A stretch of DNA of 64,000 nt from Escherichia coli. GTDB lineage: Bacteria > Pseudomonadota > Gammaproteobacteria > Enterobacterales > Enterobacteriaceae. The number at the start of each line of letters is the position of its first letter. The stretch's first letter is position 1. Shown here piece by piece: positions 8,202 through 10,238 of this stretch. The position numbers were made by a program, and so were the translations under genes. The stretch lies in NCBI RefSeq assembly GCF_050920415.1, contig NZ_CP169309.1; one strand, written 5' to 3'. Under the pieces are notes generated by a model, which did no database searches, had not been told where the DNA came from, and was given only the letters and a program-made list of their open reading frames with translations.

Positions 8202-9248
8202 TCAGAAGCGGGTATCAACCGCAGAGGCGAGTTTTTCGACCAGGCGTTCGGTATCTTCCCAGCCCAGACACGGGTCGGTAATCGATTGACCGTAAGTGAG
8301 CGGCTGACCGCCGACGATTTTTTGCGTTCCTTCGCGCAGGAAACTTTCCGCCATAATTCCAGCAATCGCCGTAGAGCCATTGCGGATTTGCTGACAAATA
8401 TCCTCACAAACTTCTAACTGGCGACGATGCTGCTTCTGGCAGTTGCCGTGGCTGAAATCCACCACCAGATGTTCAGGTAAATCAAACTCGTGCAACGTAT
8501 CGCAGGCAGCGGCGATATCATCCGCATGGTAATTCGGCTTTTTGCCGCCACGCATAATAATGTGGCCATACGGATTGCCGCTGGTCTGATAGATGGTCAT
8601 CTGACCATTTTTGTCTGGCGAGAGGAACATATGGCTGGCGCGGGCTGCGCGGATAGCATCCACGGCAATCCGCGTGTTGCCATCGGTACCATTTTTGAAA
8701 CCTACCGGACAGGAGAGTGCCGAAGCCATTTCACGGTGGATCTGACTTTCGGTAGTACGTGCGCCAATCGCGCCCCAACTGATTAAATCAGCAATAAACT
8801 GACCGGTCACCATATCGAGAAACTCAGTCGCGGTAGGGACGCCCAGCTCATTGACCTGTAAAAGTAATTTGCGCGCCAGCTCCAGACCGTGATTTACCCG
8901 ATAGCTGCCGTTTAAATCCGGGTCGGAGATTAGCCCTTTCCAGCCGACTACAGTTCGTGGTTTTTCAAAATAGGTGCGCATTACGATTTCCAGCCGTGAC
9001 TGGTACTGATTGCGCAGTGACTGCAGGCGGGTGGCGTACTCCATTGCAGCGGTGAGATCGTGGATCGAGCAGGGGCCAATAATGACCAACAGTCGCTTGT
9101 CTTCACCATTCAGTATTTTTTCAATTCTGCGACGGGAGTCGGTGACATGGGTGGCGACGCCAGGCGTTACGGGATACCGTAGCGCGAGTTCGGCGGGCGT
9201 TACCAGGCTCTCAATACGCGCAGTACGGAGTTCGTCAGTTCTGTTCAT
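8202..9248 (-). CDS. aroH: Tryptophan-sensitive DAHP synthase
   Basis: 348 aa, N-terminus MNRTDELRTARIESLVTP matches AroH; TrpR-type operator upstream. Confidence 0.95.
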   Translation of the reverse strand: MNRTDELRTARIESLVTPAELALRYPVTPGVATHVTDSRRRIEKILNGEDKRLLVIIGPCSIHDLTAAMEYATRLQSLRNQYQSRLEIVMRTYFEKPRTVVGWKGLISDPDLNGSYRVNHGLELARKLLLQVNELGVPTATEFLDMVTGQFIADLISWGAIGARTTESQIHREMASALSCPVGFKNGTDGNTRIAVDAIRAARASHMFLSPDKNGQMTIYQTSGNPYGHIIMRGGKKPNYHADDIAAACDTLHEFDLPEHLVVDFSHGNCQKQHRRQLEVCEDICQQIRNGSTAIAGIMAESFLREGTQKIVGGQPLTYGQSITDPCLGWEDTERLVEKLASAVDTRF

Positions 9249-9392
9249 TACAAGTCTCAGAAATTTGTTGCTTCTACGGCAGGACTACCGGGAAGTGATG
9301 CGCATCACGATAAACCAATCGCAGCTGATTTCAAGTGCGAGGTGTGTCACACCTCGCCGGGTGGTTAGCATGATAACAAAAAAACAAGTTAA

Positions 9393-9412
9393 TGCACTAG
9401 TTCTCTAGTACA
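9393..9412 (-). promoter_or_regulatory. TrpR operator-like palindrome of the aroH promoter
   Basis: Palindrome tgcactagttctctagtaca with paired CTAG half-sites, about 145 bp upstream of the aroH ATG and overlapping the ppsR stop. Confidence 0.6.
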
Positions 9413-10238
9413 TTCGACGGCTAAGGCCCATGATATCAAGGATCTTGGTGGCAATCTCTTCTACCGAATAATTGGTACTGTTAATCCACGGGATCTGATT
9501 TTTACGGTACAACGCTTCCACTTCCGCGACTTCCATCCTGCACTGACGAAGCGAGGCATAGCGACTGTTCTCCCGACGTTCCTCGCGAATCGCTGCCAGA
9601 CGTTCCGGGTCGATAGTCAGGCCGAACAATTTATGCTGAAGCGGTTTGAGCGACGCGGGTAGCACCAGATTATCCATATCGTCGGCAATAAAGGGGTAGT
9701 TTGCCGCGCGGATACCAAATTGCATTGCCAGATACAGACTGGTGGGGGTTTTACCACAGCGAGAAACGCCGAGCAGGATCACCTGAGCCTGGTCCAGATT
9801 GCGCAACGAAATGCCGTCGTCATGGGCAAGGGTGTAATCAATCGCCGCAATGCGCGCATCGTATTTATTGAGATTATTAGGGTTAAGGCCATGGGTACGA
9901 TGAGCAATCGGCGTTGGATCCAGTTTCATCTCTTGTTGTAGCGGGGCAACCAGCGCCTGAACGATATCCTGGCAAAAGCCTTCACTTTGCAAGATGATGG
10001 CGCGAATCTCCGGCAACACGATGGAGTAGAAGACCAGTGGGCGCACACCTGTCTGGTGATAAATTGCGTCAATCTGATCCTTCACTGCCCGTGCACGGCT
10101 CTCATTTTCGACAAACGGCAGCGTAATGCTGCTGATAGTGACGGGAAATTGTGACATTACTGCGTGTCCTAATACCTCCGCAGTTATTGCCGTACCATCA
10201 GAAATATAAAAAACGTGGCGATCAACAGCATTATCCAT
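9405..10238 (-). CDS. ppsR: PEP synthetase regulatory protein (bifunctional kinase/pyrophosphorylase)
   Basis: 277 aa, N-terminus [22 protein letters not shown] matches YdiA/PpsR; divergent from ppsA. Confidence 0.93.

What the first reader, a model, noticed from the sequence alone, without database searches (positions are those of the whole stretch)
9380..9415. aroH TrpR operator overlaps the 3' end of ppsR
The CTAG-containing palindrome tgcactagttctctagtaca sits about 145 bp upstream of the aroH ATG and runs across the ppsR stop codon. The aroH promoter and operator are therefore embedded in the end of the upstream gene, a compact arrangement that constrains the PpsR C-terminus.
Basis: partly seen in the sequence, partly recalled or inferred. 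Interest (0 to 1): 0.25.

Follow-up and report, generated by a model that had tools for sequence, protein, structure and literature searches.

The report
aroH TrpR operator on ppsR stop
This is the long-known tryptophan-repressor binding site of the E. coli aroH gene, and its outer half really is made of the last two codons and stop codon of the upstream gene ppsR; this is a tidy but ordinary arrangement, and it controls only one of two aroH promoters.

Summary
The imperfect palindrome tgcactagttctctagtaca lies at 9393-9412 (minus strand TGTACTAGAGAACTAGTGCA). It covers the ppsR stop codon TAG (9407..9405), and its near edge is 145 bp from the aroH ATG (9248). The sequence is identical in E. 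coli K-12 and shares 14 of 18 positions with the K-12 trp operator. It holds two of the window's twelve CTAG sites.

It is the classical TrpR operator of aroH, spanning -47 to -28 of the annotated promoter aroHp1 (start at 9365).

The interpretation needs three corrections:
- **Extent of overlap.** Only the outer 8 bp of the operator lie in ppsR. The -10 element and the start site are intergenic.
- **A second promoter.** aroHp2 starts at 9299, 103 bp from the operator centre. It is the only start seen in this intergenic region in two genome-wide maps, it is conserved across Enterobacterales, and a CRP site sits on it.
- **Direction of constraint.** The PpsR C-terminus (RRMY) is older than the operator. 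Serratia, Yersinia, Erwinia, Pantoea and Dickeya keep Met-Tyr/Phe-stop without any operator. The operator freezes only the synonymous site (TAC in 79 of 79 species) and the stop codon (TAA or TAG, never TGA).

Verdict: already known, low interest.

The parts
9393..9412 (-). TrpR operator of aroH, TGTACTAGAGAACTAGTGCA; centre at 9402.5, which is -37.5 of aroHp1
   Evidence: Read. Identical in K-12. Shares 14 of 18 positions with the K-12 trp operator. Unique in the window, 0.01 expected. Conserved in register in 79 of 83 Enterobacteriaceae.
9405..9407 (-). ppsR stop codon TAG; together with the preceding (AT)G TAC it forms the outer half-site GTACTAG
9405..10238 (-). ppsR (ydiA), PEP synthetase regulatory kinase/phosphorylase, 277 aa, ending in RRMY
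   Evidence: ORF. NCBIfam NF049928, 430.6 bits against a cutoff of 350. RefSeq annotation.
9370..9378 (-). aroHp1 -10 element TATCAT (9375..9370), preceded by TGT (a possible extended -10)
   Evidence: Sequence. The TAnnAT positions are 80-90% conserved across 81 junctions. The position fits the annotated start.
9365..9365 (-). aroHp1 transcription start as annotated, 117 nt upstream of the ATG
   Evidence: Back-calculated from the guide positions for aroHp1 (-70 and -91). The convention was calibrated on aroHp2, whose start is known independently.
9337..9357 (-). GC-rich hairpin GCGAGGTGTG/CACACCTCGC between the two promoters (+9 to +29 of the p1 transcript)
   Evidence: Inverted repeat found. 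RNA fold -15.6 kcal/mol, z -3.4. Hairpins of different sequence occupy the same spot in other genera. Also listed as a second CRP-like site.
9307..9334 (-). aroHp2 core promoter: -35 TTGAAA (9334..9329), 16-bp spacer, -10 TATCGT (9312..9307)
   Evidence: Promoter scan. Conserved at 90% or more across Enterobacteriaceae, and in Serratia, Yersinia, Erwinia and Pantoea.
9299..9299 (-). aroHp2 transcription start, 51 nt upstream of the ATG
   Evidence: Triphosphate-enriched 5' end maps: 414 reads (PMC3415461) and 497 reads assigned to sigma-70 (PMC3923258).
9294..9309 (+). CRP site AGTGATGCGCATCACG, centred at -2.5 of aroHp2
   Evidence: The exact string is listed under a CRP ChIP-seq peak at aroH in ETEC H10407 (PMC4287617). 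The arms are conserved order-wide.
8202..9248 (-). aroH, Trp-sensitive DAHP synthase, 348 aa
   Evidence: ORF. NCBIfam NF009396, 701.7 bits against a cutoff of 463.

Best explanation
The palindrome is the TrpR operator of aroH. Tryptophan-loaded TrpR dimers bind TGTACTAGAGAACTAGTGCA. This site spans -47 to -28 of the upstream aroH promoter (aroHp1: -10 TATCAT, start at 9365), so binding shuts RNA polymerase out of the -35 region. The outer half-site GTACTAG is the end of ppsR itself: the last base of Met276, the Tyr277 codon TAC and the amber stop. The inner half-site CTAGTGC lies in the spacer. TrpR controls only part of aroH transcription. A second promoter, aroHp2, starts at 9299, 103 bp downstream of the operator centre. 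It has its own -35 and -10 elements and a CRP site on its start. In evolution the ppsR-aroH pair, the Met-Tyr/Phe-stop end of PpsR and aroHp2 came first. The operator-plus-p1 module was then added in Enterobacteriaceae, using the existing Met-Tyr-stop codons as half of the binding site. Shown here: the sequence, its position, its conservation, the start-site data and the frozen synonymous site. Inferred or taken from earlier literature: TrpR binding, repression by occlusion, and the independence of p2 from TrpR.
For: The sequence is identical to K-12 and the genes are identified as PpsR and AroH. The site shares 14 of 18 positions with the K-12 trp operator, which I fetched and read. It is unique in the window against 0.01 expected, and it holds two of the twelve CTAG sites. 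Papers on TrpR binding to an aroH operator are cited (Kumamoto 1987; Klig 1988). A comparative-genomics paper states that TrpR represses aroH and that this link is limited to close Enterobacteriales (PMC5343134). Guide positions for aroHp1 and aroHp2 place the starts at 9365 and 9299. 79 of 83 Enterobacteriaceae junctions carry GTACTA[A/G]-N4-CTAGTNC in the same register at the ppsR stop, with a TAnnAT -10 element 20-21 bp downstream. The Tyr277 codon is TAC in 79 of 79 species, while eight other conserved Tyr codons show 56-87% major-codon use. Five outgroup genera keep the synteny but have no operator, and four of them (all but Dickeya) also keep p2.
Against: Two genome-wide 5' end maps from minimal medium report their only start in the ppsR-aroH intergenic region at aroHp2 and none at aroHp1. 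The promoter that the operator overlaps was therefore not seen active in those data. It may be repressed or weak under those conditions, since both studies filtered out weak signals. The aroHp1 -35 hexamer is poor (AGTGCA), and the annotated start lies only 4 nt after TATCAT. I could not read the original footprinting or start-mapping papers, so TrpR binding to exactly these bases rests on memory and on sequence similarity.
Confidence: 0.92

Rival explanations
1. The palindrome is mainly the intrinsic terminator of ppsR. Its RNA hairpin plus the downstream U-run would end the ppsR transcript, and the resemblance to a TrpR site would be secondary.
For: The consensus scan flags 9414..9391 plus AACTTGTTTT as terminator-like. 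The RNA folds at -11.8 kcal/mol, z -3.1. The outgroups Serratia and Erwinia have terminator-like hairpins right after the ppsR stop.
Against: The stem has only 3 G-C pairs in 10. Seven nucleotides separate the stem from the U-run. The U-run is absent in Enterobacter, Kluyvera, Cedecea and others that still keep the palindrome. What is conserved is the CTAG-containing half-sites, not stem strength, and the 4-nt spacer varies freely. A Term-seq supplement lists no 3' end at this junction.
Confidence: 0.04
2. The operator is real but nearly vestigial for aroH output. Almost all aroH mRNA would come from the TrpR-independent, CRP-bound aroHp2, so the site matters little.
For: aroHp2 is the only start found in this intergenic region in two maps. 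The p2 block is more conserved than the p1 region and is older.
Against: The operator and the p1 -10 element are kept across the whole family. The overlapping synonymous site is frozen, which argues for continuing selection. The Citrobacter freundii group has deleted the p2 -35 element but kept the operator and p1. Both maps come from cells that make their own tryptophan, so p1 may simply have been repressed.
Confidence: 0.15
3. The match is a chance palindrome created by the Met-Tyr-stop codons and has no function.
For: Half of the site is dictated by conserved protein-coding sequence that exists in outgroups without any operator.
Against: The intergenic half CTAGTNC is not coding, yet it is conserved in 79 of 83 species at fixed spacing. 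CTAG is about ten-fold depleted genome-wide. In L070 an insertion moved a complete operator away from the stop codon and the operator was retained.
Confidence: 0.01

Closest known systems
E. coli trp operator (trpLEDCBA promoter)
   Same: Same repressor and same motif: two ACTAG/CTAG cores 8 bp apart. The two sites share 14 of 18 positions (CGAACTAGTTAACTAGTACG against TGTACTAGAGAACTAGTGCA). Both overlap a promoter of a tryptophan-pathway gene.
   Different: The trp operator sits between the -35 element and the trpL start, over the -10 region, and lies wholly in intergenic DNA. The aroH operator lies over the -35 region of p1 and borrows its outer half from the upstream gene. aroH also has a second promoter outside the operator.
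lac operator overlapping the 3' end of lacI
   Same: A repressor site for the downstream promoter lies on the end of the upstream coding sequence.
   Different: At lac the overlap is reported to raise trans-translation of newly made LacI (bioRxiv 10.64898/2026.05.06.723219; Abo 2000, cited). No such effect is known or was tested for ppsR. Here only 5 coding bases plus the stop codon overlap, and the repressor is not the product of the overlapped gene.
Tandem promoters with separate regulators
   Same: An upstream promoter under a pathway-specific repressor (TrpR on p1) is paired with a downstream promoter carrying a global-regulator site (CRP on p2).
   Different: The division of labour between aroHp1 and aroHp2 has not been measured in any source I could read. 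The CRP site is centred at about -2.5 of p2, a repressing position rather than an activating one.

Membership tests
TrpR operator (E. coli TrpR regulon site) | Inverted repeat with two CTAG cores whose centres are 8 bp apart (GNACTAG-N4-CTAGTNC) | tested here: met
   ACTAGnnnnCTAGT matches exactly at 9396-9409. 13 of 14 consensus positions match.
TrpR operator (E. coli TrpR regulon site) | Close similarity to the reference trp operator of the same species | tested here: met
   14 of 18 positions match the K-12 trp operator read from NC_000913.3. One hit in 64 kb against 0.01 expected.
TrpR operator (E. coli TrpR regulon site) | Overlaps the core promoter of a tryptophan or aromatic pathway gene | tested here: met
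   The site spans -47 to -28 of aroHp1 (start at 9365, inferred) and lies upstream of aroH. It does not overlap aroHp2, the start seen.
TrpR operator (E. coli TrpR regulon site) | Bound by TrpR in the presence of tryptophan | not testable with these tools
   Only titles of the binding studies were reachable (Kumamoto 1987 and Klig 1988). The papers themselves are not held.
TrpR operator (E. coli TrpR regulon site) | Tryptophan- and trpR-dependent repression of the downstream gene | not testable with these tools
   Stated in PMC5343134. No expression data were analysed here.
Rho-independent terminator (of ppsR) | G+C-rich stem followed immediately by a U-tract, with an observed 3' end | tested here: not met
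   3 G-C pairs in 10, and a 7-nt gap before the U-run. The U-run is not conserved. No 3' end is listed in the Term-seq supplement.
Operator inside an upstream coding sequence acting as a roadblock (lacI-type) | The operator overlaps the coding sequence of the upstream, co-oriented gene | tested here: met
   9408-9412 are coding bases of ppsR and 9405-9407 are its stop codon.
Operator inside an upstream coding sequence acting as a roadblock (lacI-type) | Repressor-dependent truncated transcripts or SsrA tagging of the upstream protein | not tested
   No data were found. This is speculation by analogy.

The most novel reading that the evidence does not exclude
The operator sits on the ppsR stop codon, and Enterobacteriaceae have put it where outgroups carry a ppsR terminator. 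Tryptophan-loaded TrpR could therefore act as a roadblock to polymerases finishing ppsR. That would yield stop-less ppsR mRNA and trans-translation of PpsR, as reported for LacI at the lac operator. It could also gate read-through from ppsR into aroH. Either effect would couple tryptophan status to the regulator of PEP synthetase, and PEP is the substrate of AroH.
Probability: 0.07. Interest if true: 0.45.

Novelty: already known. Interest (0 to 1): 0.15.

Why it matters
It matters little for new biology, because the aroH operator has been a textbook TrpR site since the early 1980s and the overlap follows from the genome annotation. The comparative work does add a clean small example of how a regulatory site can be built from the end of a neighbouring gene. 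The Met-Tyr-stop codons came first, and the operator froze only a synonymous base and the choice of stop codon. The work also gives a practical caution. aroH has a second, older promoter bound by CRP that carried all detected intergenic starts in two genome-wide maps. Models or engineering that treat aroH as purely TrpR-controlled are therefore incomplete.

Tried and rejected
- **Classic papers.** I tried to read Grove and Gunsalus 1987, Gunsalus and Yanofsky 1980, Kumamoto 1987 and Cho 2011. None is held.
- **Text searches.** Searches for the operator string and for 'aroH promoter' found nothing.
- **Supplements without usable data.** Thomason 2015 is not held. Conway 2014 has no supplements held as text. 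The Cappable-seq supplement had no matching coordinates.
- **Terminator reading.** Rejected for the palindrome: weak stem, a gap before the U-run, the U-run not conserved, and no Term-seq 3' end.
- **Operator shapes the PpsR amino-acid end.** Rejected: RRMY or RRMF is present in genera without the operator and in L040, which has lost aroH.
- **The palindrome at p2 as an unassigned factor site.** Considered, but it turned out to be a listed CRP ChIP-seq site.
- **The small leader hairpin at 9278-9291.** It is not significant on folding (z -0.29) and I did not pursue it.

Full report
**Observation**

The window is E. coli. Positions 9000-9800 match 5,423 of 5,426 complete E. coli genomes, and the region is annotated as ppsR and aroH. 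The genes lie on the minus strand: aroH at 9248..8202 and ppsR at 10238..9405. NCBIfam confirms both, with PpsR (NF049928) at 430.6 bits and AroH (NF009396) at 701.7 bits.

The quoted string tgcactagttctctagtaca is at 9393-9412. On the gene strand it reads TGTACTAGAGAACTAGTGCA. It has two 8-bp arms with one T.G mismatch around the spacer AGAA. The ppsR stop codon TAG is 9407..9405, inside the outer arm. The outer arm GTACTAG is therefore the last base of Met276, the Tyr277 codon TAC and the stop. The intergenic gap is 156 bp, the same as in K-12 MG1655. The palindrome and its flanks are identical in K-12.

**Is it more than chance?**

- An idealised trp-operator 18-mer with up to three mismatches hits only this site in 64 kb, against 0.01 expected.
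- CTAG occurs 12 times against about 119 expected from dinucleotide-preserving shuffles. Two of the twelve lie 8 bp apart here.
- I fetched the K-12 trp promoter and read its operator, CGAACTAGTTAACTAGTACG. The aroH site shares 14 of 18 positions with it.

**What it is**

Papers on TrpR binding to an aroH operator exist, but I could reach them only as citations: Kumamoto 1987 in Genes Dev and Klig, Carey and Yanofsky 1988. The originals are not held. From my own knowledge, the published aroH operator is this sequence and is described as overlapping the -35 region.

A comparative-genomics paper states that TrpR represses aroH. It adds that this link is conserved only in a few close Enterobacteriales (PMC5343134).

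**Where transcription starts**

A CRISPRa preprint designed guides against two named promoters, aroHp1 and aroHp2, and gave their positions relative to each start. For its genome-wide analysis it took promoters from RegulonDB. I calibrated its position convention on aroHp2, whose start is independently known. On that basis aroHp1 starts at window 9365, 117 nt before the ATG, and aroHp2 starts at 9299.

- **aroHp1.** It has a -10 element TATCAT (9375..9370) preceded by TGT. The operator then spans -47 to -28, with its centre at -37.5. This fits repression by occlusion of the -35 region.
- **aroHp2.** Two genome-wide maps of triphosphate-enriched 5' ends were made in glucose minimal medium. Both report their only start in the ppsR-aroH intergenic region at 9299, with 414 reads (PMC3415461) and 497 reads assigned to sigma-70 (PMC3923258). 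The second map also lists two minor starts inside ppsR (8 and 13 reads, assigned to aroH) and nothing near 9365. This start has its own good promoter, TTGAAA-16-TATCGT (9334..9307), which the consensus scan also found.

The operator therefore overlaps one annotated promoter. It lies 103 bp from the start that actually dominated in the available data.

**Comparative anatomy**

I collected 80 species-level loci around PpsR and added Klebsiella, Serratia, Yersinia, Dickeya, Erwinia and Pantoea.

Within Enterobacteriaceae:
- 79 of 83 junctions carry ATG TAC TA[A/G] N4 CTAGTNC in the same register.
- A TAnnAT -10 element lies 20-21 bp after the inner CTAG.

The exceptions are informative:
- L040 has lost aroH but keeps RRMY.
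- L033 uses TAT and has no operator.
- L036 has mutated the stop TAA to CAA, and its PpsR ends one codon later.
- L070 has an insertion that places a complete operator, GAACTAGTAAGCTAGTAC, about 20 nt past the stop. The overlap is therefore not obligatory.

Outside the family, the ppsA-ppsR-aroH order is kept in all five genera. The p2 block (TTGAAW ... GGTTTATTGTGATCGCCATCACTTCCCGG) is kept in Serratia, Yersinia, Erwinia and Pantoea but not in Dickeya. None of the five has an operator or p1. PpsR in these genera still ends Met-Tyr or Met-Phe then stop (ATG TTC TGA, ATG TTT TAA, ATG TAT TAA, ATG TAC TGA). Serratia and Erwinia have terminator-like hairpins after the stop.

The simplest reading has two steps. 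The protein end and p2 are ancestral. The operator-plus-p1 module then arose in Enterobacteriaceae, using the existing Met-Tyr-stop codons as its outer half-site.

**Does the operator constrain PpsR?**

It does not constrain the amino-acid sequence, because RRMY predates the operator.

It does constrain the DNA:
- Tyr277 is TAC in 79 of 79 operator-bearing species.
- The eight other conserved Tyr codons of ppsR show 56-87% use of their major codon.
- Only 3 of 76 conserved two-fold-degenerate columns reach 98%.
- The stop is TAA (66) or TAG (17), never TGA, although two of the five outgroups use TGA.

**Rivals**

The consensus scan calls the palindrome plus the downstream T-run terminator-like, and the RNA folds at -11.8 kcal/mol. 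Four points count against this reading:
- The stem has only 3 G-C pairs.
- Seven nucleotides separate the stem from the U-run.
- The U-run is missing in most genera that keep the palindrome.
- A Term-seq supplement lists no 3' end at this junction.

A vestigial operator is argued against by family-wide conservation. It is also argued against by the Citrobacter freundii group, which deleted the p2 -35 element yet kept the operator and p1.

**Other features met on the way**

The 14-bp palindrome GTGATGCGCATCAC lies on the p2 start. Its string AGTGATGCGCATCACG (9294-9309) is listed verbatim under a CRP ChIP-seq peak at aroH in ETEC H10407. A second listed site, TGCGAGGTGTGTCACA (9336-9351), is the hairpin between the two promoters (PMC4287617).

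**Comparison, novelty and score**

The site passes every sequence-level test for a TrpR operator. Binding and repression could not be tested here.

The closest structural analogue for the overlap is the lac operator on the end of lacI. There, repressor binding is reported to raise trans-translation of LacI. Whether TrpR does anything similar to ppsR is pure speculation.

The operator is textbook knowledge and the overlap follows from the annotation, so this is already known and of low interest. The exaptation picture and the two-promoter caveat are modest additions.

Noticed in passing
window 9294-9309 (and 9336-9351): AGTGATGCGCATCACG lies exactly on the aroHp2 start (centre about -2.5). It is listed verbatim as the CRP site under a ChIP-seq peak at aroH in ETEC H10407. 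A second listed site coincides with the hairpin between the promoters. The GTGAT/ATCAC arms are conserved across Enterobacterales. What CRP does at a start-site-centred position is not explained.
   Followed up: partly
window 9299 versus 9365: Two genome-wide 5' end maps from minimal medium detect aroHp2 (414 and 497 reads) as the only start in the ppsR-aroH intergenic region and nothing at the TrpR-controlled aroHp1. The p2 block and its 51-nt leader are 90% or more conserved across 81 species, more so than the operator/p1 region.
   Followed up: partly
L002-L082 junctions (window 9393-9412 equivalent): No species has a perfect 14/14 operator. A TAA stop goes with a perfect inner half CTAGTAC (54 of 63). 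A TAG stop, which perfects the outer half, always goes with an imperfect inner half (0 of 16 perfect, in three separate lineages). This may reflect tuning of operator strength, or it may reflect shared ancestry.
   Followed up: partly
window 9337-9357; the same position in L009, L014-L031, L038, L043-L045, L049, L051-L052, L060, L066, L068, L086: A strong GC-rich hairpin ends 2-4 nt before the p2 -35 element in many genera, but with unrelated stem sequences (GCGAGGTGTG, CGGGGCG, CAGGGCA, GCCCG). In Erwinia it looks like the ppsR terminator. In E. coli it lacks a U-tail and lies at +9 to +29 of the p1 transcript. Its role is unknown.
   Followed up: partly
L007, L008, L010-L013, L016 (Citrobacter freundii complex): A deletion of about 30 bp removes the hairpin and the p2 -35 TTGAAA. 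The operator (with a TAG stop), the p1 -10 element and the CRP palindrome are all kept.
   Followed up: no
L036 (Intestinirhabdus alba), ppsR end: The stop TAA became CAA and the Tyr codon is TAT. PpsR is one residue longer (RMYQ) and ends at the TAA that is the operator spacer elsewhere. The outer half-site is thereby destroyed.
   Followed up: no
L070 (Enterobacter sp. ENT03), about 20 nt after the ppsR stop: An insertion separates the stop codon from a complete two-CTAG operator, GAACTAGTAAGCTAGTAC. This shows the overlap with ppsR is dispensable.
   Followed up: no
whole window: CTAG occurs 12 times in 64 kb against about 119 expected from dinucleotide-preserving shuffles. This is the familiar enterobacterial CTAG depletion.
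   Followed up: no
window 9000-9800: Only 9 of 5,423 E. coli genomes are 99% or more identical to this stretch, and the rest are 95-99%. The window strain carries an uncommon allele of the ppsR-aroH junction (8 differences from K-12 in 251 bp), yet the operator itself is unchanged.
   Followed up: no
inside ppsR (K-12 coordinates; not converted to window coordinates): The Cho 2014 start-site map lists two very weak sense-strand starts inside ppsR (8 and 13 reads). The Term-seq supplement lists an antisense 3' end inside ppsR.
   Followed up: no
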